Source: an uncultured delta proteobacterium (GTDB lineage Bacteria; Desulfobacterota; Binatia; DP-6). Taken from it: a stretch of 64,000 nt of DNA. The notes below the pieces were generated by a model. The model was not told where the DNA came from and did no database searches. It was given only the letters and a program-made list of their open reading frames with translations. Positions 34,919-46,484 of the stretch are shown in pieces; the first letter of the stretch is position 1, and each line of letters starts with the position of its first letter. The stretch spans positions 896,001 to 960,000 of the forward strand of contig CAWFFN010000009.1 of the NCBI GenBank assembly GCA_963815115.1. The letters run 5' to 3'. The position numbers and the translations under genes were made by a program.

Positions 34919-35758
34919 TCAGCGCGCCAGGAACACGGGCGCTCCGCTGTTGCGGAGCACGTACTCGGTGGTGCTCCCGAGCACCATCTCGATGATGCGC
35001 GAGTGGCCGTAGGCGCCGATGAAGAGCAGGTCGAAGCGCCCGTCGCGCAGCACGTCGACGATGCGCTGGTGCGGCGGACCGGTGAGCGGCTTCGGCGTCA
35101 CGGGCACGTCGTACGACTGCAGGTAGCGCTGCGCCTCGGCGAGCACCCGGCCGCCTTCGCTGCCGTCGTCGCGGGAGACGTGCACGACGGTGAGCGGCAG
35201 CTGGAGGGAGCTCGTCACCTCCGCCGCAGCATGGAGCGCCGCGCTCGCCCGCTGCGAGCCGTCGTATGCCAGGAGCGGGCGACCGATCTCGTGGAACTGG
35301 AGTGGCGTCACCAGGACGGGCTTCGGGCTCTTGCGGGTGACCGATTCCGTCGTGCTGCCGAGCAAGCCGCTGGAGAACTGCTCGTTCACTCCGCGGTGGC
35401 CGACGACCACCAGGTCGGCGGTGCGGGCCTGGTCGCAGATCTCGTTCGCCACGATCCCCATGGGAAGCGCCGTGTCGTGCGCGATGCCTTCCGTCTCGCA
35501 CCGGGCGGTGAAGGCGTCGAGGAGCACGCGCCCGCGCTCCTGCAGGGCCTCGCGCATCTTCGACGAGAAGTCGAGGTAGGGCTCGAAGCCGAGGGAGCCC
35601 GACACGTCGTGCAGGAACGACCCCTCGATCGAGACGATGTCCAGGACGTGGAGACCGATCAGGCGGGCTTGCAGCCGGCGCGCCAGCCAGAGCGCATGCT
35701 CGAGCGCGCTGTCGGCGTGCTGAGACCCGTCGAGCGCGACCAGGATGCTCTTGATCAT
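34919..35758 (-). CDS. tandem-domain universal stress protein
   Basis: ILVALDGS, DLVVVG..G....LGSTTESV, LAYDGS, GAYGHSR...LGSTTEYV. Confidence 0.92.
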   Translation of the reverse strand: MIKSILVALDGSQHADSALEHALWLARRLQARLIGLHVLDIVSIEGSFLHDVSGSLGFEPYLDFSSKMREALQERGRVLLDAFTARCETEGIAHDTALPMGIVANEICDQARTADLVVVGHRGVNEQFSSGLLGSTTESVTRKSPKPVLVTPLQFHEIGRPLLAYDGSQRASAALHAAAEVTSSLQLPLTVVHVSRDDGSEGGRVLAEAQRYLQSYDVPVTPKPLTGPPHQRIVDVLRDGRFDLLFIGAYGHSRIIEMVLGSTTEYVLRNSGAPVFLAR

Positions 35759-35864
35759 GGTGCAGCCTCCGATCCGGCTCTAACCCGGGGCCGGCAGGCA
35801 CGCAAGGACCTACGCGCTGCGCGCCCGCTTGCAAACGTCCGGCCGCCTCGCCAAAACGTGCGCG

Positions 35865-36149
35865 GTGAGCCGTCGCGACGAGACGCTGTGCGAGGAGCTG
35901 AAGGAGCTCGCGACGCGGCTCGGGCTGCGCGTTCGCGAAGAGATCCTGCTGCGTGAGGTCGGGTACCGCGTACGCAGTGGCCTGTGCCGCGTGCGCGGCG
36001 AGGACGTGCTCTTCCTCGATCGCAACCTCTCTCCGGGCGAGCGTCTCGAGGTCTTGCTGGGAGCGCTCGGCGGGATGGACATCGATGCGCACTACGTGTC
36101 GCCCGCGCTCCGCCACGTGCTGGAACGGCGCGGCAGCACCGCCGCCTAG
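35865..36149 (+). CDS. conserved hypothetical small protein
   Basis: ELATRLGLRVREE...SGLCRVRG...LDRNL...YVSPALR; 9 nt upstream of fur. Confidence 0.65.
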   Translation: MSRRDETLCEELKELATRLGLRVREEILLREVGYRVRSGLCRVRGEDVLFLDRNLSPGERLEVLLGALGGMDIDAHYVSPALRHVLERRGSTAA

Positions 36150-36158
36150 GATCGGGCC

Positions 36159-36638
36159 ATGGTTCGCGCCCGCATGCGGCTCTTCGAGCAGGCGTTGCGC
36201 GAGCGGGGTCTCAAGTCGACCGCGCAGCGCGACGACATCGCGCGCGCGTTCTTCGGCGCCGCCGAGCACCTCTCGGTCGAGGAGCTGCACGCGGCGGTGA
36301 AGAAGGTGAACCCGCGCGTCGGCTACGCGACCGTCTACCGGACGCTGAAGCTGCTGAAGGAGTGCGGGCTCGCCGACGAGCGCCATTTCGACGACGGGCA
36401 GGCCCGCTACGAGCCCACCGAGGCTGCGGAGCAGCACCACGACCACATCATCTGCGAGCGCTGCGGCAAGATCGTCGAGTTCAACAGCGACGAGCTGGAG
36501 AAGCTCCAGGAGCGCATCGCGCGCTTCCTCGGTTTCGTCGTGAGCCGCCATCGCATGGAGCTCTACGGCATCTGCGCGGAATGCCGCGAGGGCCGGCGAA
36601 GCGCCGGTCGGGCGCCGCGCGGCGTGCAGCAAGTCTAG
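36159..36638 (+). CDS. fur: ferric uptake regulator family protein
   Basis: GLKSTAQR, HLSVEEL, ATVYRTL, HHDHIICERCG, GICAEC. Confidence 0.9.
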   Translation: MVRARMRLFEQALRERGLKSTAQRDDIARAFFGAAEHLSVEELHAAVKKVNPRVGYATVYRTLKLLKECGLADERHFDDGQARYEPTEAAEQHHDHIICERCGKIVEFNSDELEKLQERIARFLGFVVSRHRMELYGICAECREGRRSAGRAPRGVQQV

Positions 36639-36729
36639 CGCTAGTCTAGCGCGCCGCCGGCATCAGTGTCCGAGGACGTGCCCGAGCTGGCGGCCGAGCT
36701 CCACCGGCCCACCCCGGGGAGCCTGCTGA

Positions 36730-36775
36730 TTGACAGGGAAGGGCAACCCGAAGTAATTGAAAGTGACTTTCAAAA
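36730..36775 (+). promoter_or_regulatory. sigma70 promoter overlapped by a Fur-box-like palindrome
   Basis: TTGACA at 36730-36735 and TAATTG near 36754; perfect 8-1-8 palindrome TTGAAAGT-G-ACTTTCAA at 36757-36773. Confidence 0.8.
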
Positions 36776-36789
36776 TCGAGCATCTCCGA

Positions 36790-38943
36790 ATGCCCGCACC
36801 CTCCCTGCTCCGCCGCCTCCTGCCGCTCGTCCTGACGCTCGGGTGCGTGGTCGCGCCGGTGTCCTCGCGCGCGGCGGGCGAGGACGCGACCGCCGACACG
36901 CGACGGCTTCTCACGCTGCTCGCGGGGATACGCGGCGAGTACCATGAGGCCTTCGACGCCCGGGGCAACGTCAGCCGCTCCATCGAGATCGAGGAAGCGA
37001 AGCTGCTGCTGGCCGAGGCGCGCGATCTGAACGCCCGCCTCACCCTGGTCGATCCCGCCGCGCTCGACGCCGTCGCCCGGGACATCGAGCAGCACGCTCC
37101 CGCGAGCGCGCTCGGGCCGCGGATCGAGGCGATCGCGACGGGCATCACGGCGCGCACCGGGATCCGCGACGACCCCCTCGCGCCGGAGCCGCCCTCCGCG
37201 GTGCGGGGACAGGTGGTCTTCAGCGAGAACTGCGCCGGCTGCCACGGGGCAACCGGTGACGGCGGAGGCACCGAAGCGCGCCGCCTGGGGTTGGCGCCCG
37301 CCAACTTCGCGAACCCCGCCTTCATGCGCGGCGAGACTCCGCGCGACCACTTCAACGTGGTCTCGCTCGGTCGCCGTCGCTCGGGCATGCCCGAATGGGC
37401 GGACGCTCTCAGCGTGCAACAGCGCTGGGACGCGGTCAGCTACCTCTGGACCCTGGCGCATCCCCGACCGGCGCTGCTCGAGGGCCAGCAGCTCTACCAG
37501 GAGAACTGCGCGGGCTGTCACGGTGCCGACGGGGCGGGACACGGCCCGCGGGCCGCCGCGCTGTCGGGCCGGATGCCCGACTTCCACCGGCCGGGAAGCC
37601 TGATCGATCGGACGGACACCCAGCTGCTGGGCGTCGTGAGCGACGGGGTCCCCGGCACCGCCATGGCCGCCTTCGGGGGAGCGCTGAGCGAGGACCAGCG
37701 CTGGAAGACCGTCGCCTGGGTGCGTGCCCTGTCGCTCGGCGGCGCGGAGCCGCCGGCGGCGGCGCCGGAGCGCGCGGAGAGGGCTACGGAGCCAGCGCAG
37801 CTCGCGGCCCGCACGAGCGCGGCGGTGGGAGAAGCCCACCGGCTGCTCGACGAGGCGATCGCAGCCCGCCGCCGCGGAGAGGCGGCGGCGGGAGCGATCG
37901 CCACCGACGCCTACATGCGCTTCGAGCCCTTCGAGAAGCGTCTCGGTGCGGTCGATCCGGGAGCGGTCGTCCGGGTCGAGGAGGGGTTCGTGCGCGTGCG
38001 TGGCGCGCTGCACGAGCCGGGCACCAGCGTGTCGCCCGCGCTGGAATCCGAGGTGGCCCAGCTGCACCGTCACCTCGATGCGGCGGTGGCCGTCCTCGGC
38101 GCGAGCGGAGGCGACTGGGCCCGCTTCGTCCAGTCCGCCGGCATCATCCTGCGCGAGGGCTTCGAGATCGTGCTGATCGTGGGCGCGCTGCTCGCGTACG
38201 TGCGCCGGAGCGGGCAGGTGTCGCTGGTCCGGCCGATTCACGCTGGCGTCGTCCTCGGCGTGCTCGCGAGCGTGGGCACCGCGGCGCTCCTCAGCACGGT
38301 GCTGCGGCTCTACCCGGGTGCGAGCGACGTGCTGGAGGGAGCGGCGATGCTGCTCGCCGCCGGCGTGCTCTTCTGGGTGAGCTACTGGCTCGTCGCGAAG
38401 GCCGGGGCCGACCGCTGGCAGCGCTTCATCCAGGGCAAGGTGAAGGACGCGATGGCCATGGGCAGCAGCACGGCGCTCGCCGTCGCCGCCTTCCTCGCGG
38501 TCTATCGCGAAGGCTTCGAGACCGTCCTCTTCTACCGCGCGCTGCTCGGTGGGGCGCCGACCGGCGACGTGATGATCGGTGCGGGATTCCTGTGCGGGCT
38601 CGTGGTGCTGGCCGCGCTGTGGGTCGGTCTGTCGCGGCTCGGGCTCCGCGTGCCGCTCGGACCGTTCTTCCTGGTGACGGGCGCGTTCCTCTACGCGATG
38701 GCGATCGTCTTCGCCGGCCGCGGCGTCTTCGAGCTGCAGGACGCGGGCGTCATCGGGGTCACGCCGGTGCCGTTCGTGCCGCGGATCCCGGTGCTCGGGC
38801 TCTTCCCGACGCTCGAAACCCTCGTCGCGCAGGGTGTGCTCGTCGCCGCGCTTCTCGTGGCCGGCGTGGTGACGTGGCGCCGCCGCCTCCATCCGCCCCG
38901 AGGTCTGGAGGCGCAGCTCGCGTCCGGAGGCGGCCGCGCGTGA
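36790..38943 (+). CDS. di-heme cytochrome c / FTR1-family iron permease fusion (PbrT-like)
   Basis: Signal peptide, two CAGCH heme motifs with distal Met candidates (SGMP, TAMA), two REGFE motifs in the TM domain. Confidence 0.9.
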   Translation: MPAPSLLRRLLPLVLTLGCVVAPVSSRAAGEDATADTRRLLTLLAGIRGEYHEAFDARGNVSRSIEIEEAKLLLAEARDLNARLTLVDPAALDAVARDIEQHAPASALGPRIEAIATGITARTGIRDDPLAPEPPSAVRGQVVFSENCAGCHGATGDGGGTEARRLGLAPANFANPAFMRGETPRDHFNVVSLGRRRSGMPEWADALSVQQRWDAVSYLWTLAHPRPALLEGQQLYQENCAGCHGADGAGHGPRAAALSGRMPDFHRPGSLIDRTDTQLLGVVSDGVPGTAMAAFGGALSEDQRWKTVAWVRALSLGGAEPPAAAPERAERATEPAQLAARTSAAVGEAHRLLDEAIAARRRGEAAAGAIATDAYMRFEPFEKRLGAVDPGAVVRVEEGFVRVRGALHEPGTSVSPALESEVAQLHRHLDAAVAVLGASGGDWARFVQSAGIILREGFEIVLIVGALLAYVRRSGQVSLVRPIHAGVVLGVLASVGTAALLSTVLRLYPGASDVLEGAAMLLAAGVLFWVSYWLVAKAGADRWQRFIQGKVKDAMAMGSSTALAVAAFLAVYREGFETVLFYRALLGGAPTGDVMIGAGFLCGLVVLAALWVGLSRLGLRVPLGPFFLVTGAFLYAMAIVFAGRGVFELQDAGVIGVTPVPFVPRIPVLGLFPTLETLVAQGVLVAALLVAGVVTWRRRLHPPRGLEAQLASGGGRA

Positions 38944-39497
38944 CGATCGCCATCCTGATGGCGATCGCCGTGCTCATGGCTTCACCGGGCCGGGCGCAGG
39001 AGGGCGTCTTCCTGAGCGAGGACCAGGCGCCGGCGGCGGTCTTTCCGGACGCCGACCACTTTGCGCGCTCCGAGGTCGAATCCACCCCGGCGCTCCGCGA
39101 GCGCATGAGCGCCCGGCTCGACGGCGTCCATCCTTCGTTGTGGGAGGAGCGCTACGTCGTCTTCACGGCGACGCGCGGTGCGACCCCGCTCGGCCAGGCC
39201 CTGGTCGTCGAGGAGATCGGCAAGCATCGGCCGATCACCTTCGTCGTCGGGCTCCGACCGGATCGCAGCGTCAACGACGTCGCCGTGATGGACTACCGGG
39301 AAGCCTACGGCGGCGAGGTCCGCAGCACGCGCTTCCTGCGCCAGTACCGCGGCAAGGGACCGGGCGACGCCCTGCGGCCCGGTGACGAGATCACCAGCAT
39401 CGCCGGTGCCACGCTGTCCGTGGAGGCGGCGAGCCGCGCCGTTCGCAAGGCCCAGGCCCTGTCGGCCGCGCTCGACCAGCCCGGAGGGCAGCGGTGA
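38940..39497 (+). CDS. extracytoplasmic FMN-binding (flavinylated) protein
   Basis: Signal peptide, IGKHRPITF, YREAYGGEV...FL.QY, IAGATLS flavinylation-type motif. Confidence 0.8.
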   Translation: MTIAILMAIAVLMASPGRAQEGVFLSEDQAPAAVFPDADHFARSEVESTPALRERMSARLDGVHPSLWEERYVVFTATRGATPLGQALVVEEIGKHRPITFVVGLRPDRSVNDVAVMDYREAYGGEVRSTRFLRQYRGKGPGDALRPGDEITSIAGATLSVEAASRAVRKAQALSAALDQPGGQR

Positions 39498-40495
39498 GCG
39501 CTCGGCTGCTGGCCGGGATGCTCGCCCTGCTGCCGCTGGCCGCGGCGGCTGCGCCGCAGACCCAGGTGCACTACGTCATGGGCACCTACCTGCGCATCAT
39601 CGCCGACGGCGACGGCGCGGCCGCGGGGATGGCGGCTTGCTTCCGGGAAGCCCGGCGACTCGAGCACGTCTTCTCGCGCTTCGACGCGACGAGCGAGCTG
39701 TCACGGCTGAACGCCGAGGCGGCCGAGGAGACGTGGCCCGCGAGCGACGACATGTCCCGCCTGCTCGATCGGTCGCGCGCGCTGGCCGACGCCACCGGCG
39801 GGGTGTTCGACGTCGCCGTCGGGCCGCTCACCGCGCTCTGGCGTCGCCCCGAGCCGCCCAGCCGGGCCGAGCTCGCGGCGGCGCGGGCGGCGACGGGCCG
39901 CGGCGCGTTTCGCGTGCGCGGCGGCCGCGTGACCCTGGCACCCGGAGCGCGGCTCGACCTCGACGGCGTCGCCAAGGGGTATGCCGTCGACGTGTGCGCC
40001 GGCCGCCTGCGCGCCGCCGGCGTGTCGCGCGCGCTGGTGAGCCTCGGCGAGAGCAGCCTCTACGCCCTCGGCACGCCTCCGGGTGCTGCCTACTGGCGGC
40101 TCGCGGTCCGCGGCCCGGATCCGGAGACCCAGGTCGGGTGGCTCGGGCTGCGTGACGTCGGCGCCTCCGTCTCCGCGACCTACGGGAGCACTGGACGACG
40201 CGCCGGAACGGTGGCGCACATCATCGACCCGCGCAGCGGGCGTCCGCTCGAGGACGACGCGGTGGCGGTCGTCGCCGCGTCCTCGGCCACCGACGCCGAG
40301 GGCTGGACCAAGGCGCTCCTCGTGTGGGGCCGGGGCGGAGTCGAGCGCGTTCGCCGGGGCGGCGCGAGGGCGGCGGTGCACGTGACCTCCGAAGCGGTCC
40401 GCGCCGACGTCGCGGGCGATGCCGGAGGCTCGGTCACGTGGGCGCGCTTGCCGGCGCCGCGGCGCATCGCCGCGCGCGAGGAGCCGCTCCGGTGA
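39494..40495 (+). CDS. apbE: FAD:protein FMN transferase (ApbE family)
   Basis: MGT, FS.F...SELSRLN, T.G.FD..VG.L..LW, DLDGVAKGYAVD, HIIDPRSG. Confidence 0.85.
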   Translation: MSARLLAGMLALLPLAAAAAPQTQVHYVMGTYLRIIADGDGAAAGMAACFREARRLEHVFSRFDATSELSRLNAEAAEETWPASDDMSRLLDRSRALADATGGVFDVAVGPLTALWRRPEPPSRAELAAARAATGRGAFRVRGGRVTLAPGARLDLDGVAKGYAVDVCAGRLRAAGVSRALVSLGESSLYALGTPPGAAYWRLAVRGPDPETQVGWLGLRDVGASVSATYGSTGRRAGTVAHIIDPRSGRPLEDDAVAVVAASSATDAEGWTKALLVWGRGGVERVRRGGARAAVHVTSEAVRADVAGDAGGSVTWARLPAPRRIAAREEPLR

Positions 40496-41004
40496 GGGTG
40501 TTCGGCTCTCCGGGCTTCCTCCTGAGCGACGCGCGCCTCGAGGTGCGGCTGGTCTACACCGGCTTCCTGGTGCTGGCGCTCGTCGGCATGGCGACCATGG
40601 CGCTCTTCCAGGTGAAGGCCATCGGCCCGGGGCCGGCGCAGATCGCCGCCTACTTCCGGGGCGGCGAGCGCAACGGCGCGATGACCTTCCAGAAGACGTT
40701 CCGCGAGCTGATCGAGCTGACGCACTTTCACGCCTTCGTGATGGGCCTGGTCTACCTGGTGATGGCGCACCTCGTGCTCGCGACCAGCGCCTCCGATACC
40801 GTCAAGCGCTTTGCCATCGTCCTCGCGTTCGCCGGCCTCGCCGGCGACGTGCTGGGCGTCTGGCTGATCCGCTACGTCTCGGGCGCGTTCGCGTATACGC
40901 AGGTGCTGAGCTGGATCGCCGAGTGGCTCGGCTTTTCGGCGTTCGTCTACTACCCGCTGAGAGAGATGTGGTTCCGTGAAGGACGCGGGGCGCGAACAAG
41001 CTGA
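40492..41004 (+). CDS. four-TM membrane protein with clustered histidines
   Basis: GTGA overlap with apbE; hydrophobic segments; ELTHFHAF...MAHL. Confidence 0.7.
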   Translation: MRVFGSPGFLLSDARLEVRLVYTGFLVLALVGMATMALFQVKAIGPGPAQIAAYFRGGERNGAMTFQKTFRELIELTHFHAFVMGLVYLVMAHLVLATSASDTVKRFAIVLAFAGLAGDVLGVWLIRYVSGAFAYTQVLSWIAEWLGFSAFVYYPLREMWFREGRGARTS

Positions 41005-41149
41005 GCACGATCTGCGCTGCCAGTGCGGGAGCCTGATGGCTCGCGTCACCGAAGCGGGCATCGAGCTCAAGTGCCGGCGCTGCAAGCGCGTCGTCGTGGT
41101 ACCGGTCAGGGGGATGACCGGCGACTGGATCGAGGTGTCGATGCGCTGA
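40976..41149 (+). CDS. Com-like zinc-ribbon small protein (57 aa)
   Basis: Translated by hand: MKDAGREQAEHDLRCQCGSLMARVTEAGIELKCRRCKRVVVVPVRGMTGDWIEVSMR, with CxC-G.L.A...IE.KCxxC; below the ORF-track cutoff. Confidence 0.75.
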   Translation: MKDAGREQAEHDLRCQCGSLMARVTEAGIELKCRRCKRVVVVPVRGMTGDWIEVSMR

Positions 41150-41192
41150 ACCGGCGCGACATCCGAGCCAGCGGCCAGCGGTCGACGAACCC

Positions 41193-41243
41193 AGAGCCCG
41201 GAGCGCGCGCACGGCGGAGCGCGCGTCCGGGCTCTTTCCGTTT
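41193..41243 (+). terminator. intra-operon terminator/attenuator-like hairpin
   Basis: AGAGCCCGGA(G)CGCGCGC-8 nt loop-GCGCGCG-TCCGGGCTCT followed by TTCCGTTT. Confidence 0.6.
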
Positions 41244-41258
41244 GGACAAGGGGGATCG

Positions 41259-42914
41259 ATGGACAGAGGACGGTTGTGCGTCGCACTCGCGATGGCGGCG
41301 CTGGTGGTCGGGAACGGTACGGCGGTGGCCGAGAGCCTCGAGCAGCGCGTCGAGCGCATGGAGAAGGAGCTGCAGGAGCTCAAGTCGGAGCTCCGGCGGC
41401 GCGATGCGGCCGATCGCCGGCGGGCGGCCGAGGAGTCGAAGCGCAGGCCCGCCGAGACGGTGGCGGCACCGCCGCCGCCGCCGTCGAAGCCGGGCGCCGT
41501 CGCGGCCGCCCCCGCGCCCGAGCCCGGCACCGAGGCGGCGCGCACGGCCAAGGCGGGCGAGAGCGAGAAGGGCGGCTACCTGCCGAGCTCGCTCCGCGCC
41601 ATCACCGACCGGGTGAAGGTCGGCGGCTACGGCTCGATCCGCTTCGAGGCCAACAGCAACCCGGCCGACAACAACACCTTCACCTACCGCCGCTTCGTGC
41701 TGACCACCGATGCCAACATCGCCCCCCGGCTGCACGCGTACATGGAGCTCGAGCTGGAGCGCTTCCGCGAATTGGAAATCGAGAAGACCCTGCAGCCGAG
41801 CGATGGCGGCCTCGCCGCGACCCAGGCCGTCGAAGCCACCAACGGCTCGGAGATCTCGCTCGAGCAGGCGTGGCTGCAGTACGACGTCCAGGACTGGCTC
41901 AAGTTCCGGGGCGGCGCGGTGCTGGTCCCGGTCGGCCGCTTCAACCTGCACCACGACGACGACCTCTGGGATCTGCCGCGCCGCTCGCTGGTGGATCGCG
42001 GGGTGCCCGTGCTGCCCGTTCCCGCCGCCTGGGACGAGCTGGGCATGGGCTTCCTCGGCGACGTGCCGCTCGGCGACGACATGACGCTCAACTACCAGAC
42101 CTACGTCGTCAACGGCGTGACCCTCGACTACGAGTTCGAGCAGATCGCCCAGACCCGCTTCCCGGACACGCCGCTGCAGGCGATCGAAGTCGAGGTGCAG
42201 CCGTTCACCGGCACCTTCTCGAACGACGTCAAGAACGCGAAGTCCTTCACCGGGCGACTCGCGCTGAGCCCCGCGCTGGGCCACGAGGTGGGCGCCTCCT
42301 GGTACTACGGCCGCTACACGCCGAGCTTCCTGCCCAGCGAGAGCCTGTATTCTCTCGCCGGCGACTGGAAGAGCATCTTCGGGCACTTCGAGGTCGAGGG
42401 CGAGTACGTCTTCACGCACTTCGGCGGCGTCAAGAACGTCGCCACCGGTCTGGCGCGGGTCGCGCGCGAGCAGGAGTCGGAGTTCGAGAACCCGACGCTC
42501 GAGAGCGAGGTCGAGTTCGAGCTCGCCAACATCGCGACGAGCAAGCAGGGATACTGGCTCGACTTCCGCTATCGCTTCTGGCCCGACTTCCTCACCAAGA
42601 GCTTCCTCGGCTGGGAGTTCGAGAACCCGCAGCTCGTCGCCGTGCTGCGCGGCGAGCAGGTGTGGCTGAACGGCTTGGTGGAGGAAGCGGCGTTCGGCGG
42701 GGGCCGGCTCGTCTCGTTCGAGACCGACGACCGGCGGGTCGACCGCATCACCGTCGGCCTGTCGTATCGTCCGGTGCCGCTCGTCGTCTTCCAGCTCGCC
42801 TACGAGTACACGCTCACCAACAGCGGCAAGAGTCTGTCCAGCGTCACGAACTTCATCCCGGGCAACGTCGATCATCAGAGCGCATTCCTGTTCGGCGCCG
42901 CCTTCGGATTCTGA
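41259..42914 (+). CDS. outer-membrane porin with N-terminal coiled coil
   Basis: Signal peptide, LEQRVERMEKELQELK coiled coil, GGYG, RFVL, ELELE, LEQAWL, VPVGRFNL.H, C-terminal Phe (AAFGF). Confidence 0.8.
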   Translation: MDRGRLCVALAMAALVVGNGTAVAESLEQRVERMEKELQELKSELRRRDAADRRRAAEESKRRPAETVAAPPPPPSKPGAVAAAPAPEPGTEAARTAKAGESEKGGYLPSSLRAITDRVKVGGYGSIRFEANSNPADNNTFTYRRFVLTTDANIAPRLHAYMELELERFRELEIEKTLQPSDGGLAATQAVEATNGSEISLEQAWLQYDVQDWLKFRGGAVLVPVGRFNLHHDDDLWDLPRRSLVDRGVPVLPVPAAWDELGMGFLGDVPLGDDMTLNYQTYVVNGVTLDYEFEQIAQTRFPDTPLQAIEVEVQPFTGTFSNDVKNAKSFTGRLALSPALGHEVGASWYYGRYTPSFLPSESLYSLAGDWKSIFGHFEVEGEYVFTHFGGVKNVATGLARVAREQESEFENPTLESEVEFELANIATSKQGYWLDFRYRFWPDFLTKSFLGWEFENPQLVAVLRGEQVWLNGLVEEAAFGGGRLVSFETDDRRVDRITVGLSYRPVPLVVFQLAYEYTLTNSGKSLSSVTNFIPGNVDHQSAFLFGAAFGF

Positions 42915-42925
42915 GGAGATGTGAA

Positions 42926-44548
42926 ATGTCGACGATCAAGCTCCTGCTCCTGCTGCTCGTGCTCCTCGGCCCCGCCGTCGCGCGGGCCGACGACGACGAG
43001 GGCGGCGGAGAGGAGGCCGATCCCCCCGAGGTGGTGATCGGCGAGCGGCTCTTCCTGGAGACACGCTTCGCCCAGTTCTTCCAGGCCCACGCCGGCGGCA
43101 ACATGAACGCGGTGCTCGCGCAGGGCGATCCGGTGATGAACACGCTCGATACGACGGCGGGGCCGATCGCCGCTCCGTTCCCGGGCGCCGGCATGAACTG
43201 CCGGCAGTGTCACCTGGTCGACGACGCCAAGGAGACGCCCGGGGGCGGCAATCGCAGCTATGCCGACTTCGCGCGCCACAGCCCCATCCCGGCACGCGAG
43301 GACGGCCGCACGATGACGCCGCGCAACTCCCCGCCGCTGGTCAACGCCAGCCTCGCGCGCGGGCGACCGTTCTTCCTGCACTTCGACGGCGAGTTCCCCT
43401 CCACCGCCGCCCTCGTCGAGGGCACCCTCACCGGACGCAACTTCGGCTGGCTGCCGAACGAGCGCGGGCAGGCCGTGGCGCACATCGCCGCCGTGATCCG
43501 GGGCGACGACGGCACGGGTCAGCTGGCGGCCGACAACGGCGGCGCGTACCGCCGCGTGCTCGGTGGCAGCGACCCGTCCATCCCGAAGGAGCTCCGGCTG
43601 CCGAAGCGGTTTCGCATCGACGTCGATCGCGCGAGCGACGATCAGATCCTGCGCGCGGTGGCGCGCCTGATCTCCGCCTACGTCGAGTCGCTCGAGTTCG
43701 AGAACGCGTCACCCTACGACCGCTTCCTCGAGAAGAACGGCCTGCCGACCGAGCCGCGCGAGTTCGAGTCGACGGCCGACTACCTGAAGCGGCTCAAATT
43801 CCTGATGGGCGAGCACGGGGACCCCGAGCCGATCACCGATGCGGACGGCGCCTTCCAGCTGCACGAGCAGCAGTTCGTCTTCGGCGCGGACGAGCTCGAG
43901 GGCCTGCGCATCTTCCTGGACCGCGGGCGTGGCAACTGCGTCTCCTGCCATCCGCCGCCGGACTTCACCGACTTCAGCTTCCACAACACGGGCGTGGCGC
44001 AGGAGGAGTACGACGCGCTGCACGGCGCAGGCAGCTTCGCGGCCCTCGCCATTCCCGACCCGGCGATCCGCAAGGCCGATCCCGATGCCTTCCTGCCGGC
44101 GACGGCCCTTCATCCCGCCGCGCTGGAGCCCTTCCGGGCGATCCCGGCGGCGGATGCGCCGGGACGCACCGACCTGGGCATGTGGAATCTGCTGGAGAAC
44201 CCGGACTATTCCGGCCGCACGTACCAGCGTCACCTCGAGCGCATGGTGTGCGCGTCGCAGGGGTCGCCGGCGAGCTGCCGCCGGGCGCCGGACGCGCTCC
44301 TCGCCGCCTCGATCGCCCTCTTCAAGACGCCCGGGCTACGCGACCTCGGGCACTCCGGACCGTATCTGCACAACGGCTCGAAGGACGCCCTCGAGGACGT
44401 CGTGCGGTTCTACGCCAACGCGTCGGCCCTGGCTCGGGCAGGCCAGCTGCGCAACGGCGCGCGTGAGCTGCGGGACATGCACATCGGCGACGGTGACGTC
44501 GTCCCCCTGGCGGCGTTCCTGCGGGCCCTCAACGAGGACTACGAGTAG
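42926..44548 (+). CDS. di-heme cytochrome c peroxidase/MauG superfamily protein
   Basis: Signal peptide, GERLF.E, CRQCH, RNSP, GL.IF...GNCVSCH, FKTPGLRDL..SGPYLHNG. Confidence 0.85.
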   Translation: MSTIKLLLLLLVLLGPAVARADDDEGGGEEADPPEVVIGERLFLETRFAQFFQAHAGGNMNAVLAQGDPVMNTLDTTAGPIAAPFPGAGMNCRQCHLVDDAKETPGGGNRSYADFARHSPIPAREDGRTMTPRNSPPLVNASLARGRPFFLHFDGEFPSTAALVEGTLTGRNFGWLPNERGQAVAHIAAVIRGDDGTGQLAADNGGAYRRVLGGSDPSIPKELRLPKRFRIDVDRASDDQILRAVARLISAYVESLEFENASPYDRFLEKNGLPTEPREFESTADYLKRLKFLMGEHGDPEPITDADGAFQLHEQQFVFGADELEGLRIFLDRGRGNCVSCHPPPDFTDFSFHNTGVAQEEYDALHGAGSFAALAIPDPAIRKADPDAFLPATALHPAALEPFRAIPAADAPGRTDLGMWNLLENPDYSGRTYQRHLERMVCASQGSPASCRRAPDALLAASIALFKTPGLRDLGHSGPYLHNGSKDALEDVVRFYANASALARAGQLRNGARELRDMHIGDGDVVPLAAFLRALNEDYE

Positions 44549-46484
44549 GAAGGGGCACGCGTAGCGGGTTCGGCCCGGGGGGCCAGAGGCCGTGCTCGAC
44601 GGCCTCGGCCCCGCGGAAGACCACGAAGCTCTCGCCGCCGTAGTGGGGCAGCGGTCTGGCGATGGCGCGGAGGGCGTCGGCGCCGTCCGCCGCCACGACG
44701 GCGATCGGCGCCCGGTCGCGTCGTCGAGCCGCCCAGACGCGTGCCGTGCCCTTGCCGGCCAGCGCCGGCGGCGGCCCGTCGAGCTGCGCGCGGGCCAGCT
44801 GCGCCGCGACGTCGTCCGTGGTGCCGACCACCAGGACGGCCCCCGGCGGGAGCGCGCCGCCGGGGGCCTCGGCGACCGTCGGCGGGCGCTCGAAGAACCG
44901 CGCCGCCAGCTCGCGCGCCGCGGTCCGGGTCGCCTGGTCGGATCCCGCGAGCACCGTCTCCGCCGTCGGGTCGAAGGCGACCTCGCGCAGGATGGGCGGG
45001 ATCTCGGCGGGAGCGAGACGCCGGAAGAGGCGGAGGTCGGGGTCGACGGCGAGCGCCCGGGGCTCGGCCGTGACGTCGACGGCGAACGTCCGCGTGGTCT
45101 CGGCGAGGTACAGCGTCCTGCCCACCGGTCCGGCCGCGGTCTCGACGGTCACCGGGACGCCCAGCACGTACGGCGGCTCGTCCTGCGTGAGCGCGAACGA
45201 GACGCGAGCGGGCTCGGAGGCGACGTCGCCGAGCCCCAGGCGCGGCGCCCCGGGCCGGCGCAGCCACTGGGTGAAGAACGGCGTCAGCGAGCGGCTGGCG
45301 GCGGAGGCGAATGCGGCTTCGAGATCGTTCCAGGTCGCGGCCTCGAAGCGATGCGCCTGCCAGAAGCGCCGCACGCCGGTCGCGAACGCCTCCGGCCCGA
45401 TCTGGTCGCGCAGCATCTCGAAGACGAACGCCGCCTTGTGATAGCCGGTGGCCTGCGACGCGGTGTGCATGCGTCCCCGGAAGCTGTCGAGGGGGCGATC
45501 CTCGGCCGCCGGCAGGACCGCGAACTCGCGCAGCCAGGCGAGACGCTGGTCGCGCGCGGCCTCCTCGCCACGGCGCTCCGTGAACGTGTAGTCGGCCATG
45601 AAGGTGGTGAGGCCCTCCGCCCAGTTGCCGTCGCGACCGTCGACGCGCACCCCCTCGCCCCACCACGAGTGCAGCACCTCGTGTCCCAGCGAGGTGGCGG
45701 GGATGAAGGGCAGCCGCAGCACCCGCGCGCCCATGTAGGTCATGCCCGGAAACGCGAGCCCGACCGGAAGCGGGCTCGAGACGATCGAGAAGCCGGGGTA
45801 CGGATAGCCGCCGATCCAGCCGTCGTAGAGATCGAGGTAGTCCGCGGTGCGCTCGAGATAGGTGTCGGCGAGATCGGCGGCAGCGGCGTCGAAGTAGGTG
45901 CGAAGGCGCCAGCCGCGATGGATGCGCTCCGAGACGCGGTACGGCCCGGCGAAGAGCGGCAGGTCCGCCACCGGCGCGATCGACGCGAAGCTCGCCCGGT
46001 AGCGCCCTCCGTCGGTGGTCTCCGAGGTCAGGCGACCCGGAGTGAGGGCGCGCTGCGGATCCGGGACGTCGATCGTGACCTCGTAGGTGAAGAGGCCGCC
46101 GAAGGTCGGGAACCAGCCGTCGGGCAGGTACGATCCGTCCGTCCCGGCGACGGGACCGGTGACGTCGGCCGCCTCGGGAGGCGAGGCCACGTGCCCCCGG
46201 TACTCGACCACCACGTCGTGCCGGGCGTCCTGGTCGAGGGCGATCCGTCCGCCGCGCATCCCGACCTGGGCCGGCTTGCCGTCGACGACGAGTCGAACGA
46301 TCGCGAACCCGGGCGCCAGCTTGAAGGCGGCCGGCCCGCGGCCGCGAAGCGCGATACGGTCGGTACCCTGGAGCGCGCGCTGTGCCGGCTCGAACCGCAG
46401 CTCGAGCACGTGATGCACCGGAGCGTCGGCGGCGAGGGCCCGCGCCGCGAGCGCGAGCGCCAGGAGAGCGCCGGCGCGGGTCAC
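44529..46484 (-). CDS. exported M1-like metallopeptidase
   Basis: HEVLHSWWG...GNWAEGLTTFMADY, GYHKAAFVF. Confidence 0.85.
   Translation of the reverse strand: MTRAGALLALALAARALAADAPVHHVLELRFEPAQRALQGTDRIALRGRGPAAFKLAPGFAIVRLVVDGKPAQVGMRGGRIALDQDARHDVVVEYRGHVASPPEAADVTGPVAGTDGSYLPDGWFPTFGGLFTYEVTIDVPDPQRALTPGRLTSETTDGGRYRASFASIAPVADLPLFAGPYRVSERIHRGWRLRTYFDAAAADLADTYLERTADYLDLYDGWIGGYPYPGFSIVSSPLPVGLAFPGMTYMGARVLRLPFIPATSLGHEVLHSWWGEGVRVDGRDGNWAEGLTTFMADYTFTERRGEEAARDQRLAWLREFAVLPAAEDRPLDSFRGRMHTASQATGYHKAAFVFEMLRDQIGPEAFATGVRRFWQAHRFEAATWNDLEAAFASAASRSLTPFFTQWLRRPGAPRLGLGDVASEPARVSFALTQDEPPYVLGVPVTVETAAGPVGRTLYLAETTRTFAVDVTAEPRALAVDPDLRLFRRLAPAEIPPILREVAFDPTAETVLAGSDQATRTAARELAARFFERPPTVAEAPGGALPPGAVLVVGTTDDVAAQLARAQLDGPPPALAGKGTARVWAARRRDRAPIAVVAADGADALRAIARPLPHYGGESFVVFRGAEAVEHGLWPPGPNPLRVPLPTRSPR

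What the first reader, a model, noticed from the sequence alone, without database searches (positions are those of the whole stretch)
36159..44548. Fur-controlled redox-coupled iron acquisition operon: cyt c-FTR1, flavoprotein, ApbE, His-membrane protein, Zn ribbon, porin, di-heme enzyme
Seen: fur is followed by a promoter with a perfect palindrome, then seven co-oriented genes, the first five joined by overlaps (GTGA at 38940, 39494, 40492). Known: FTR1 permeases normally pair with a multicopper ferroxidase, EfeOB or P19, and ApbE covalently attaches FMN to extracytoplasmic electron carriers. No multicopper oxidase, EfeO/EfeB or P19 gene is present here. Inference: a complete envelope-spanning pathway, with porin entry, a periplasmic di-heme enzyme, a membrane-to-FMN electron relay and hemes fused to the permease that set the iron redox state for import. 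I do not recognise this combination as a characterised system.
Basis: partly seen in the sequence, partly recalled or inferred. Interest (0 to 1): 0.8.

Follow-up and report, generated by a model that had tools for sequence, protein, structure and literature searches.

The report
Fur-controlled haem-flavin iron uptake cluster
An uncultured soil bacterium (Binatia) places, behind an iron-sensor binding site, an iron importer with built-in haem groups next to a widespread but unstudied gene set (pore, flavin protein, flavin-attaching enzyme, small histidine-bearing membrane protein) that probably changes the redox state of iron so that it can be taken up.

Summary

The palindrome is a Fur-type box. 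It is conserved with a TTGACA hexamer in 10 of 10 orthologous promoters, and only 4 such sites occur in the 6.9-Mb genome.

The locus is not one indivisible system. It joins two separable, uncharacterised units:
- **Di-haem cytochrome c-FTR1 permease.** It stands alone in 62 of 62 Gemmatimonadota-labelled loci.
- **Zn-ribbon / porin / FMN_bind / Aq_1264_TM / ApbE module.** It stands alone or beside P19-FTR1 or FeoB in other genomes, usually behind its own Fur box.

A conserved terminator-like hairpin separates the first five genes from porin-MauG. The MauG-like gene is a lineage-specific addition.

The four-helix membrane protein has an invariant HxH at the periplasmic end of helix 2. Its long-form relatives carry a CxxCH haem-c insertion at that spot and then lack a flavoprotein neighbour, which points to a redox role.

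Best reading (0.55): iron-repressed, redox-coupled iron uptake without copper.

Closest in print: the P19/FTR1 + FMN_bind clusters of Meheust 2021. I rate it a new variant of a known kind.

The parts
35829..36149 (+). 106-aa ORF of unknown family directly upstream of fur (9-nt gap)
   Evidence: No Pfam or NCBIfam hit. Found beside fur in 8 of the 80 loci and in 7 of the 15 loci.
36159..36638 (+). fur (Fur-family metalloregulator, 159 aa)
   Evidence: PF01475 at 1.2e-36. Best NCBIfam rows are Fur models, then PerR, all below their cut-offs. HHDH at residue 93, CERC at 99 and CAEC at 139.
36730..36735 (+). -35-like hexamer TTGACA
   Evidence: TTGAC[AT] is present at the same place in 10 of 10 aligned promoters, the window plus 9 loci. 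The strict sigma-70 scan found no full promoter.
36757..36773 (.). Fur-type operator, perfect 8-1-8 palindrome TTGAAAGTGACTTTCAA
   Evidence: Perfect inverted repeat. Conserved as TGAAA[AGT]NNANT[TC]TCA in 10 of 10 promoters. Only 4 sites in the genome, reversed control 0. Two of the other three sites adjoin a ferritin gene and a ChuX-like gene.
36790..38943 (+). Di-haem cytochrome c-FTR1 permease fusion (717 aa)
   Evidence: Order of parts: signal peptide, 4-helix domain, two class-I cytochrome c domains, 4-helix domain, 7-TM FTR1. Pfam hits. CAGCH twice and REGFE twice. Alignment A3. AF2 model with mean pLDDT 71. Solved-structure matches cover the cytochrome c part only.
38940..39497 (+). 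Exported FMN_bind (RnfG/NqrC-like) protein, predicted ApbE substrate at Thr158
   Evidence: PF04205 at 1.1e-6 and RnfG models. The motif SIAGATLS starts at residue 153, G156 is invariant and T158 nearly so. It is the only FMN_bind gene in the genome.
39494..40495 (+). ApbE FAD:protein FMN transferase with an N-terminal signal-like segment
   Evidence: PF02424 at 1.3e-51.
40492..41004 (+). Aq_1264_TM (PF27139) four-helix inner-membrane protein with HxH (H78, H80) and H93 on helix 2
   Evidence: All 120 listed homologues carry PF27139, and the Atlas agrees. AF2 model with pLDDT 95. H78 in 139 of 139, H80 in 137 of 138 and H93 in 106 of 133.
40976..41146 (+). 56-aa CxC...CxxC zinc-ribbon protein, no signal peptide
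   Evidence: Conserved in 7 of the 80 loci, alignment. An equivalent ORF sits between the Fur box and the porin gene in the stand-alone module L138 (read by eye). Only sub-threshold hits to DUF6510 (0.0086), for the window's own protein, and to Zn_ribbon_Com (0.014), for its L029 orthologue only.
41170..41246 (+). Conserved 32-nt block, then a GC-rich hairpin (41194-41234) and a T-rich tail: terminator or attenuator between the Zn-ribbon and porin genes
   Evidence: Fold of -61.7 kcal/mol, z -2.09. A hairpin plus T-run is present in L028, L029, L032 and L084, with different stem sequences. No Rfam family matched.
41259..42914 (+). Outer-membrane beta-barrel ('porin') with signal peptide, N-terminal coiled coil and C-terminal Phe
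   Evidence: The window's own protein has no Pfam hit. Atlas neighbours are Porin_O_P-like, score 0.98. Of 8 homologues, 2 hit OMP_b-brl (4.5e-6), 1 hit SlpA_C and 1 hit Porin_O_P (0.011). 31 invariant columns in alignment A6.
42926..44548 (+). Exported di-haem CCP/MauG-superfamily enzyme (540 aa)
   Evidence: PF03150 at 26.9 bits against a cut-off of 25.6. Sub-threshold matches to MauG, MbnH and His-Xaa-Ser MauG-like models. Best solved chain is 6nx0 at E 0.0064. CRQCH at residue 92 and CVSCH at 338.

Best explanation
This is an iron-repressed locus for redox-coupled iron uptake, assembled from two units that also exist separately.

Regulation. When iron is scarce, Fur leaves the operator that overlaps the promoter at 36757-36773. 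A five-gene transcript is then made: cytochrome c-FTR1, FMN_bind protein, ApbE, Aq_1264_TM and the Zn-ribbon protein. Porin and MauG-like follow behind a leaky terminator, or have a start of their own.

Inferred mechanism:
1. ApbE attaches FMN to Thr158 of the exported FMN_bind protein.
2. The four-helix Aq_1264_TM protein holds a His-ligated cofactor at the periplasmic end of helix 2. Most likely this is haem b shared between two protomers, as shown for FezC.
3. That cofactor passes electrons from the quinol pool to the flavin.
4. The flavin reduces ferric iron or ferric chelates that enter through the dedicated porin.
5. The resulting Fe(II) is captured by the acidic four-helix domains of the permease and re-oxidised by its two c-type haems. 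These would stand in for the copper oxidase Fet3, or for EfeB/P19.
6. The iron is passed through the two REGFE motifs of FTR1.
7. The MauG/CCP-like enzyme, where present, drains the haem electrons to peroxide or removes peroxide formed next to Fe(II).

Shown: gene content, motifs, operator conservation, synteny, and the separability of the units.
Inferred: the cofactor of Aq_1264_TM, the direction of electron flow, and the substrate.
For: Fur control:
- The operator and TTGACA are conserved in 10 of 10 promoters.
- There are 4 sites genome-wide, control 0. They lie at this operon, at a Ferritin-family gene (1.1e-39), at a ChuX_HutX-like gene (1.1e-4, below cut-off) and at a PEMT gene.
- Fur-type boxes also lie directly upstream of the porin gene in 5 of 7 modules elsewhere. 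One of these follows another fur gene.

Iron link of the module:
- It is joined to cytochrome c-FTR1 in 10 of the 18 non-Gemmatimonadota loci.
- It sits beside plain FTR1 in L145.
- In L140, genes for P19 (8.5e-63), FTR1 and Fer4_5 lie 1.5-4 kb away.
- In L149, fur, feoB and a DtxR-FeoA gene sit beside ApbE, the porin and a 315-aa duplicated, HxH-less relative of Aq_1264_TM (form).

Permease: both RExxE motifs and both CxxCH motifs are intact. It is the only FTR1 in a genome that has no P19 and no EfeO.

Flavin: the flavinylation motif is conserved, and this is the only FMN_bind gene in the genome.

Redox role of Aq_1264_TM:
- H78 is present in 139 of 139 and H80 in 137 of 138 family members.
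- 9 of 9 short forms have an FMN_bind neighbour. None of the 21 other loci does.
- 11 of 14 long-form ORFs carry a CxxCH inserted in loop 1, just before the HxH. This also fixes that loop as periplasmic.

Precedent: Huang 2024 showed that the flavinylation-associated DUF4405 and the ferrosome protein FezC bind haem b, the latter via homodimerisation (PMC11334425, passages). Meheust 2021 linked FMN_bind genes to 260 P19/FTR1 clusters (PMC8238504).
Against: - No experiment and no expression data: no RNA run holds the stretch.
- The fusion works without the module. 0 of 62 Gemmatimonadota-labelled loci have it nearby, and 3 of 5 such genomes have no Aq_1264_TM anywhere.
- The module works without FTR1. 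L138 and L139 are flanked by queA/tgt, DUF2797, SAD_SRA and hydantoinase genes. The link between the two units is therefore lineage-specific.
- Aq_1264_TM shows no sequence relation to DUF4405, 0 of 53 members at E up to 5, and no informative structural match.
- H93 is missing in 27 of 133 family members, and in the long forms. A two-haem transmembrane wire cannot be general.
- An HxH motif could equally bind a metal ion.
- The MauG-like protein barely passes its Pfam cut-off, and its chemistry is unknown.
- The strict promoter scan found no sigma-70 promoter.
Confidence: 0.55

Rival explanations
1. Oxidative route only. The substrate is Fe(II). The c-type haems of the permease act as the ferroxidase. 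The FMN_bind protein and Aq_1264_TM carry the electrons away into the quinone pool, with the MauG/CCP-like enzyme as an alternative sink to peroxide. No ferric reduction takes place.
For: FTR1-type permeases are coupled to Fe(II) oxidation in the Fet3-Ftr1 and EfeUOB paradigms (established knowledge of these families). The cytochrome c domains resemble electron-transfer cytochromes such as CcoP and Kustc0457. A CCP-type enzyme normally takes electrons from cytochrome c. Meheust 2021 notes that the direction of flow in flavinylated systems could be reversed.
Against: Stand-alone modules have no cytochrome c-FTR1 to serve. The module also sits beside FeoB, a ferrous importer that needs no oxidation. 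FMN has a low potential, which suits it better as a reductant of Fe(III) than as an acceptor from c-type haem (inference).
Confidence: 0.2
2. Aq_1264_TM is not an electron carrier. It is a metal-binding or metal-conducting membrane protein, with HxH as an Fe(II) site. The porin/flavoprotein/Aq_1264_TM module would then be a self-contained reductive importer. Electrons would reach the flavin from another donor, for example the fused cytochrome c.
For: Stand-alone modules have no recognisable transporter nearby. Only two His are invariant and both sit at the periplasmic mouth. The long forms place a haem c right at that site, which mirrors the haem-c-on-permease logic of the FTR1 fusion.
Against: A four-helix bundle with pLDDT 95 shows no obvious pore, although oligomers were not modelled. 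Without a membrane electron source the flavin in stand-alone modules has no donor. The published membrane partners of flavinylated proteins are electron-transfer proteins, several of them cytochromes.
Confidence: 0.15
3. The module serves a periplasmic redox task that is not iron uptake, such as peroxide or oxidative-damage control, or handling of another metal. The regulator would be a PerR/Mur-like Fur homologue, and the adjacency to FTR1 in Binatia would be incidental.
For: All NCBIfam Fur, PerR and Zur models score below their cut-offs. A peroxidase-family gene is attached. One of the four operator sites precedes a PEMT gene with no evident tie to iron.
Against: The operator has the TGA...TCA ends of Fur boxes rather than the PerR or Zur ends (recalled consensus, not tested here). 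The regulator has the HHDH motif. The other operator sites adjoin ferritin and ChuX-like genes. Iron importers of three kinds (FTR1, P19-FTR1, FeoB) adjoin the module in different genomes.
Confidence: 0.1

Closest known systems
P19/FTR1 iron-assimilation clusters with an FMN-binding gene (Meheust et al. 2021, eLife, PMC8238504; bioinformatic only)
   Same: An FTR1 permease is clustered with an ApbE-flavinylatable FMN_bind protein, and the proposed role is redox chemistry for iron uptake. One relative here (L140) has P19 + FTR1 + Fer4_5 close to the module.
   Different: There is no P19 in the cluster or the genome. The permease carries two c-type haems and two acidic four-helix domains. The module adds a dedicated porin, an Aq_1264_TM membrane protein and a Zn-ribbon protein, none of which appears in the passages I read. 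The paper's supplementary cluster tables could not be opened and may list such clusters.
Flavinylation-associated membrane electron-transfer proteins: NapH-like, MsrQ-like, PepSY-like, DsbD, NQR/RNF-like (Meheust 2021) and DUF4405/FezC haem-b cytochromes (Huang et al. 2024, mSystems, PMC11334425)
   Same: A small His-bearing membrane protein is encoded beside apbE and a flavinylated periplasmic protein, is often Fur-linked, and often sits beside iron transporters. FezC sets the precedent that a small protein can form haem sites by homodimerisation.
   Different: Aq_1264_TM has four helices. DUF4405 is described with six, and four central His. No sequence relation was found: 0 of 53 members hit DUF4405. 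No structural match was found. The invariant His form an HxH on a single helix. No cofactor has been shown.
Yeast reductive uptake Fre1-Fet3-Ftr1, and bacterial EfeUOB and FtrABCD
   Same: FTR1-family permease with two RExxE motifs, and iron redox change coupled to permeation. There is a possible parallel between the reductase step (Fre1) and the flavin module, and between the oxidase step (Fet3, EfeB) and the fused haems or the CCP-like enzyme.
   Different: The cluster has no multicopper oxidase, cupredoxin, EfeO/M75, Dyp peroxidase or P19. The redox centres are c-type haems fused to the permease and a covalent flavin. This comparison rests on established knowledge of those systems, not on a test here.
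[quoted passage not shown]
   Same: The fusion architecture is common: 494 protein clusters at E up to 1e-10 and 551 confirmed stretches in species genomes. It is already named in annotation (a table row in PMC9230427). cFTR1 of Synechocystis is reported as iron-starvation-induced and fed by a respiratory oxidase (passages of bioRxiv 10.1101/2021.11.08.467730).
   Different: I found no functional study of the haem-fused form. Whether cFTR1 carries a haem domain was not checked here.
MauG / bacterial di-haem cytochrome c peroxidase / MbnH / BthA superfamily
   Same: Two CxxCH motifs, a Pfam CCP_MauG hit just above the cut-off, and a best solved relative (6nx0) that is a di-haem peroxidase family protein.
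   Different: It is 540 aa with large insertions. It scores far below every NCBIfam equivalog cut-off. No MauG- or MbnH-type substrate gene is evident. It is present in only part of the orthologous loci.

Membership tests
FTR1/EfeU iron permease (PF03239) | Pfam model above the gathering score | tested here: met
   89.9 bits against 25.3. 91.8 bits in the genome scan.
FTR1/EfeU iron permease (PF03239) | Two RExxE iron-permeation motifs in transmembrane helices | tested here: met
   REGFE at residues 455 and 573. R455, E456, E459, R573, E574 and E577 are invariant in alignment A3.
FTR1/EfeU iron permease (PF03239) | Iron transport activity | not testable with these tools
   Needs an uptake assay.
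Class I c-type cytochrome domains | CxxCH haem attachment motif plus a distal Met, on an exported domain | tested here: met
   Two CAGCH motifs. M200 and M292 are invariant. Pfam Cytochrome_CBB3 at 3.5e-25 with 2 stretches. N-terminal signal-like segment. Haem attachment itself is not testable here.
Fur family (PF01475), iron-responsive Fur proper | Pfam model, HHDH motif and two CxxC pairs | tested here: met
   125.9 bits. HHDH at 93, CERC at 99 and CAEC at 139.
Fur family (PF01475), iron-responsive Fur proper | Assignment to Fur rather than PerR, Zur or Mur by a curated equivalog model | tested here: inconclusive
   Best NCBIfam rows are Fur models (119.8 bits against a cut-off of 220). PerR scores 83.2. 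None passes its cut-off.
Fur family (PF01475), iron-responsive Fur proper | Operator of Fur-box type at iron genes | tested here: met
   7-1-7 site TGAAAGTGACTTTCA at the promoter. The other sites lie at ferritin and ChuX-like genes. Binding was not tested.
ApbE flavin transferase (PF02424) | Pfam model above the gathering score, and an exported protein | tested here: met
   176.1 bits against 25.6. Hydrophobic N-terminal segment.
ApbE substrate of FMN_bind type (PF04205; RnfG/NqrC-like) | FMN_bind domain with a conserved [ST]-G-[AS]-[ST] flavinylation motif, encoded beside apbE | tested here: met
   29.7 bits against 22. SIAGATLS, with G156 invariant and T158 in at least 90% of 18 sequences. 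Overlaps apbE. Flavinylation itself was not tested.
Aq_1264_TM (PF27139) | Match to the Pfam model | tested here: met
   The local Pfam copy lacks the model. All 120 listed homologues, down to 60% identity, carry precomputed PF27139. Atlas clusters carry it in 84-100% of members.
DUF4405/FezC-type flavinylation-associated haem-b cytochromes | Sequence or structural homology to DUF4405 (PF14358) | tested here: not met
   0 of 53 family members hit PF14358 at E up to 5. Fold searches were uninformative. This lowers membership, not the functional analogy.
DUF4405/FezC-type flavinylation-associated haem-b cytochromes | Conserved transmembrane His pairs able to ligate haem b | tested here: inconclusive
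   H78 and H80 are invariant, and H93 is present in 106 of 133 members, all on one helix. Bis-His ligation would need a dimer, which was not modelled.
Porin_O_P (PF07396) outer-membrane porin | Pfam model above the gathering score | tested here: not met
   The window protein has no hit. 1 of 8 homologues hits at 0.011. Beta-barrel families hit 2 of 8 (OMP_b-brl, 4.5e-6). Atlas neighbours are Porin_O_P-like. It is best called an outer-membrane beta-barrel of unassigned family.
CCP_MauG di-haem enzymes (PF03150) | Pfam model above the gathering score and two CxxCH motifs | tested here: met
   26.9 bits against 25.6. CRQCH and CVSCH.
MauG or MbnH equivalogs | NCBIfam equivalog cut-off | tested here: not met
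   TTQ_mauG scores 45.5 against 443.85. The MbnH family model scores 43.8 against 362.85.
Zn_ribbon_Com (PF10122) | Pfam model above the gathering score | tested here: not met
   No hit for the window protein. The L029 orthologue scores 15.3 bits against 22.9.

The most novel reading that the evidence does not exclude
Aq_1264_TM is a new class of membrane redox protein, a quinol-linked, His-ligated haem carrier built by oligomerisation. It feeds either a covalently flavinylated partner (short form) or its own inserted c-type haem (long form). Together with a dedicated porin it would form an undescribed, Fur-controlled periplasmic ferric reductase found in many phyla. In Binatia this reductase is wired to a haem-fused FTR1. 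That would give a complete copper-free bacterial counterpart of the yeast reduce, re-oxidise and permeate route.
Probability: 0.3. Interest if true: 0.8.

Novelty: new variant of a known kind. Interest (0 to 1): 0.6.

Why it matters
FTR1 permeases are thought to need a partner that changes the redox state of iron: a copper oxidase, EfeOB or P19. Here, and in hundreds of uncultured soil bacteria, the only FTR1 of the genome carries its own haems instead.

In Binatia it is also tied to a flavin module whose membrane component belongs to a family with no described function. If that protein is a redox carrier, it adds a further class to the known membrane partners of ApbE-flavinylated proteins.

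It would also give a testable model for copper-independent, reductive-oxidative iron uptake in abundant soil lineages (Binatia, Gemmatimonadota). The flavin/haem-c swap between short and long Aq_1264_TM forms is a natural experiment that makes the hypothesis directly testable.

Tried and rejected
- **Locus search with the membrane protein.** The search for related loci with the membrane-protein alignments A1 and A2 failed because no stretch was conserved enough. I used the permease alignment A3 instead.
- **Fold search of the Aq_1264_TM model.** Foldseek against the PDB gave no match at E up to 0.001. VIA-align wide gave a best Z of 8.4, only generic four-helix bundles within the range the tool calls uninformative for helical proteins.
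- **Relation of Aq_1264_TM to DUF4405.** None was seen.
- **Complex prediction, Aq_1264_TM with the FMN_bind protein.** The verdict was 'weak support'. The median score was 0.40 against a best control of 0.01. The tool's mark was reached by 58 of 80 solved complexes and 2 of 110 mismatched pairs. At 0.60 or under, it was reached by only 7 of the 80 and by both mismatches. The runs agree in at least 68% of contacts and the partner's pLDDT is at least 84, and my own alignments were used. I do not count this as evidence either way.
- **Whole-fusion AF2 model.** It is mediocre (pLDDT 71, pTM 0.44). PDB matches cover only the cytochrome c part, and no solved FTR1 relative was found. The two acidic four-helix domains stay unassigned. 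A possible likeness to the two four-helix bundles of imelysin/EfeO is my recollection only, and Peptidase_M75 did not hit.
- **Rfam.** No family matched in 35700-44800 at E up to 1.
- **Expression.** No RNA holder is listed among the 13 runs. The best DNA holder has 0.25 of the words.
- **Gemmatimonadota neighbourhoods of the fusion.** The neighbours are conserved but look like housekeeping genes, so they say nothing about partners.
- **Strict sigma-70 scan.** No promoter was found, and only two terminator-like sites, both inside the MauG gene and at chance level.
- **Literature.**
  - No paper for 'aq_1264'.
  - None for ApbE + porin + FMN-binding + Fur since 2021.
  - 'FTR1' + 'CXXCH' and 'FTR1 family iron permease' gave only annotation mentions.
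  - 'cFTR1' gave a cyanobacterial preprint.
  - PMC1698941, PMC4460010 and PMC8756737 held nothing relevant in the passages seen.

Full report
**1. What is there**

The region is 70-77% G+C. Reading frames were fixed by translation, Pfam and NCBIfam. On the + strand lie:

| Feature | Coordinates | Evidence |
|---|---|---|
| 106-aa ORF, unknown family | 35829-36149 | no family hit |
| fur | 36159-36638 | PF01475, 1.2e-36 |
| Intergenic promoter region | 36639-36789 | see section 2 |
| Cytochrome c-FTR1 fusion | 36790-38943 | two cytochrome c domains; FTR1 2.4e-25 |
| FMN_bind protein | 38940-39497 | 1.1e-6; RnfG-like |
| ApbE | 39494-40495 | 1.3e-51 |
| 170-aa membrane protein | 40492-41004 | see section 4 |
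| 56-aa CxC...CxxC protein | 40976-41146 | see section 3 |
| 551-aa outer-membrane protein | 41259-42914 | see section 3 |
| 540-aa di-haem CCP_MauG protein | 42926-44548 | 26.9 bits against a cut-off of 25.6 |

The three GTGA overlaps are real. The permease has two CAGCH and two REGFE motifs. The MauG-like protein has CRQCH and CVSCH. Fur has HHDH and two CxxC pairs.

The flanks are pyrF, a PhaR-like gene and a universal stress protein gene upstream. Downstream, convergent, lie an M1-peptidase-like gene and a ChaN/Tiki-PDZ gene. Names given to close homologues place the organism among uncultured Candidatus Binatia.

**2. The palindrome is a Fur-type operator**

TTGAAAGT-G-ACTTTCAA (36757-36773) is a perfect 8-1-8 inverted repeat. 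The TTG that opens the longest ORF is its first base, so the true start is ATG 36790.

In the window and nine orthologous loci, a TTGAC[AT] hexamer and a 15-mer of the form TGAAA-N-N-N-A-N-T-[TC]-TCA keep the same positions. This holds in 10 of 10, while the surrounding spacer varies.

In the 6.9-Mb genome the pattern TGAAANTNANTTTCA, with up to one mismatch, occurs at four sites, against none for the reversed control. The other three sites precede:
- a Ferritin-family gene (1.1e-39);
- a ChuX_HutX-like gene (1.1e-4, 22.5 bits, below the cut-off of 25);
- a PEMT-family membrane methyltransferase.

The strict sigma-70 scan did not call a promoter.

The regulator scores best against Fur models, but below every NCBIfam cut-off. 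I read this as Fur repression of the downstream genes. Binding was not tested.

**3. The row of genes is a composite**

*Within the family of the window.* I ran tblastn of 13 window proteins against 15 fetched stretches. It shows the order orf106 - fur - fusion - FMN_bind - ApbE - membrane - Zn ribbon - porin - MauG-like in five genomes: G004, G001, G003, G010 and G014. In G014 the contig ends inside the porin gene. Where the stretch reaches far enough (G004, G001, G003), the convergent M1-like gene follows, with ChaN behind it in G001 and G003. G010 has frame breaks and is 58% complete. G003 has the fusion in two frames.

A second genus (L015 and L017; L016 is cut) has a different order: fur - fusion - ApbE - porin-like - FMN_bind - membrane. 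It has no MauG-like gene.

*Across species genomes.* A permease-profile scan found 551 confirmed stretches, and the best 80 were kept. phmmer against their six-frame ORFs gave:
- FMN_bind, ApbE and the membrane protein in the same 10 loci, all among the 18 loci not labelled Gemmatimonadota;
- none in the 62 Gemmatimonadota-labelled loci;
- the porin in 9 loci, fur in 8, the Zn ribbon in 7 and the MauG-like gene in 4.

Five of these loci are the same genomes as. In Gemmatimonadota the neighbours of the fusion are conserved but look like housekeeping genes. Three of five such genomes have no relative of the membrane protein anywhere.

*The module on its own.* A profile of the membrane protein found it in 26 of 301 sampled genomes of the phylum. 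Among the 30 loci returned, nine are full-length short forms, one of them the window itself.
- All nine have an FMN_bind gene next to them.
- Six have ApbE, and six have the porin, within the 1.5-kb flank.
- The other 21 loci have no FMN_bind neighbour.

With longer flanks:
- L138 and L139 show a porin - FMN_bind - membrane - ApbE operon flanked by unrelated genes (queA/tgt, an MFS transporter, DUF2797, SAD_SRA, a hydantoinase), and L143 and L144 show the same four-gene order, though their flanks were not annotated apart from a second ApbE in L143;
- L145 has the module followed by a plain FTR1;
- L140 has it close to P19 (8.5e-63), FTR1 and a Fer4_5 protein;
- L149 has fur, feoB, a DtxR-FeoA gene, apbE, the porin and a 315-aa duplicated, HxH-less relative of the membrane protein (form).

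Fur-type boxes lie just upstream of the porin gene in 5 of 7 such modules. L144 has a perfect match behind another fur gene. L139 has the classical TGATAATCATTATCA. In L138 the box is followed by a Zn-ribbon ORF and then the porin. The Zn-ribbon protein therefore belongs to the module.

The module is an independent, iron-regulated unit that different lineages park beside different iron importers.

*Transcript structure.* Between the Zn-ribbon and porin genes lies a 32-nt block that is nearly identical in four orthologues. It is followed by a GC-rich hairpin (41194-41234; -61.7 kcal/mol, z -2.09) and a T-rich tail. L028, L029, L032 and L084 have the same arrangement, with different stem sequences and clearer T-runs. 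No Rfam family matches.

The operon proper is thus the five overlapping genes. Porin and MauG-like are either read through an attenuator or started separately.

**4. The membrane protein**

It has no hit in the local Pfam or NCBIfam copies. All 120 listed homologues carry PF27139, Aq_1264_TM, and the Atlas agrees. A full scan of 1.84 billion representatives gave 372 proteins at E up to 0.001. No paper mentions aq_1264.

The AF2 model is confident (pLDDT 95). It shows four long helices and a structured loop with a beta hairpin between helices 1 and 2. Fold searches gave nothing specific.

In 150 family members plus the window protein:
- H78 is present in 139 of 139;
- H80 in 137 of 138;
- G57 in 129 of 131;
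- H93, thirteen residues further along the same helix, in 106 of 133.

The most telling result concerns the long forms. Of 14 long-form ORFs, mostly 240-300 aa and none with an FMN_bind neighbour, 11 carry a CxxCH motif. The motif is inserted in loop 1 a few dozen residues before the HxH. Haem c is attached only outside the cytoplasm (established knowledge of cytochrome c biogenesis), so loop 1 and the HxH face the periplasm.

The family thus pairs its HxH site either with a separate flavoprotein or with a built-in c-type haem. Meheust et al. describe the same flavin/cytochrome interchange for other systems (section 17 passage).

This favours a redox role, but it does not prove one. The HxH could also be a metal site at which a haem or flavin reduces iron.

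Huang et al. 2024 showed haem b in DUF4405, and in FezC via homodimerisation. Aq_1264_TM shows no sequence relation to DUF4405.

**5. The other parts**

*FMN_bind protein.* It keeps the flavinylation motif SIAGATLS, with G156 invariant and T158 in at least 90% of 18 sequences. It is the only FMN_bind gene in the genome, so it is the evident substrate of the adjacent ApbE.

*Permease.* The alignment and AF2 model (pLDDT 71) show, in order:
- a signal peptide;
- a four-helix domain (33-123) with invariant Y51, E53, R63, E66 and E69;
- two cytochrome c domains;
- a second four-helix domain (334-438) with invariant D373, Y375, E379, E382 and E397;
- seven transmembrane helices.

Solved relatives cover only the cytochrome part: the Kuenenia di-haem cytochrome 6h5l_B and CcoP.

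The genome has one FTR1, no P19, no Peptidase_M75, one Dyp-type peroxidase on another contig, and multicopper oxidases elsewhere.

*Porin.* It has a signal peptide, a coiled coil, a terminal Phe and 31 invariant columns across 8 sequences of 20-56% identity. Only weak beta-barrel family hits were found in relatives, and the Atlas neighbours are Porin_O_P-like.

*MauG-like protein.* It is a distant member of its superfamily.

**6. Mechanism and rivals**

The best-supported reading (0.55) is iron-repressed, redox-coupled uptake:
1. The flavin module reduces incoming ferric iron.
2. The haems on the permease re-oxidise Fe(II) at the channel mouth.
3. The CCP-like enzyme serves as an electron or peroxide sink.

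The general claim of an iron-regulated iron-uptake function rests on the operators and on three kinds of neighbouring importers. The electron path is inference.

Rivals are:
- an oxidative-only route, with the module as the electron sink (0.2);
- Aq_1264_TM as a metal-binding or metal-conducting protein rather than an electron carrier (0.15);
- a redox task unrelated to iron (0.1).

No RNA data were available.

**7. Novelty**

The nearest published description is bioinformatic. It covers 260 P19/FTR1 clusters with an FMN_bind gene and five classes of membrane partners, none of them this family. I read the abstract, sections 8 and 11, and passages of PMC8238504; the supplements are closed. DUF4405 and FezC are described in passages of PMC11334425.

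The fusion already has an NCBI product name. I found no functional study of it, and no description of the porin/flavoprotein/Aq_1264_TM/ApbE set.

Earlier notes of this scan report the same module in Dadabacteria, Nitrospira and Ignavibacteria genomes. They are unchecked AI notes and are used only as leads. One of them pointed me to the DUF4405 paper.

What this window adds:
- the fur gene and operator at the head of the row;
- the Zn-ribbon gene as a module member;
- the internal terminator;
- the MauG-like addition;
- the flavoprotein versus haem-c complementarity of the two Aq_1264_TM forms.

Verdict: a real and coherent locus, a new variant of a known kind, interest 0.6.

Noticed in passing
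window 41170-41246: A 32-nt non-coding block (AGCGGCCAGCGGTCG..CCCAGAGCCCGG) is nearly identical in four orthologues whose proteins are only 65-75% identical. It is followed by a hairpin whose stem differs between loci, and then a T-run. This could be an attenuator, a processing site or a small RNA. No Rfam match.
   Followed up: partly
window 44529-47653, minus strand: A convergent pair, an M1-peptidase-like gene (760 aa) and a ChaN/Tiki haem-binding + PDZ gene (390 aa), stays next to the cluster even in the genus that lacks the MauG-like gene (L015-L017, L030, L031). The 3' ends of the MauG-like and M1-like ORFs overlap by 20 nt. It may belong to the iron locus.
   Followed up: partly
window 35829-36149: A 106-aa ORF with no family hit sits 9 nt upstream of fur and travels with it: 8 of the 80 loci, including loci that lack the flavin module (L040, L081).
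   Followed up: partly
L117-L135 (loci): Long-form Aq_1264_TM proteins carry a CxxCH insertion in periplasmic loop 1 (11 of 14 ORFs). Two lie beside di-haem cytochrome c genes (L146 at 9642-10214, L131). G042 and G087 hold a 315-aa duplicated form without the HxH.
   Followed up: partly
G000:C12:727304-728698 (L026 7356-8699) and G000:C12:804881-805777 (L027): Two paralogues of the periplasmic part of the fusion (four-helix domain plus cytochrome c domains, no FTR1) lie elsewhere in the genome. About 2 kb from the first lie what look by eye like an encapsulin shell gene and a ferritin-like cargo gene. Neither was tested with any tool.
   Followed up: no
G000:C7:866815, C8:156615, C9:983018 (L151, L152, L154): These are the only other matches to the operator in the genome. 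They lie upstream of a ChuX-like gene divergent from what looks by eye like an AraC-type regulator (not tested), of a PEMT-family membrane protein, and about 300 nt upstream of a ferritin/bacterioferritin-like gene. This looks like a very small Fur regulon, or a strict subclass of sites.
   Followed up: partly
L019 (G003:C10) and L021 (G010:C13): In G003 the fusion is read in two frames: residues 14-269 and 281-717, split between the two cytochrome c domains. In G010 several genes of the cluster, including fur, show frame breaks. These may be assembly errors or decay. G010 is 58% complete.
   Followed up: no
L143 12544-14034: A second, longer ApbE (497 aa, PF02424 at 1e-40) is encoded divergently from the porin gene of a stand-alone module that already ends with an ApbE.
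   Followed up: no
window 36638-36652: A perfect GC-rich 7-1-7 palindrome, GCGCTAG-T-CTAGCGC, lies directly after the fur stop codon, within a short direct repeat of AGTCTAGCGC.
   Followed up: no
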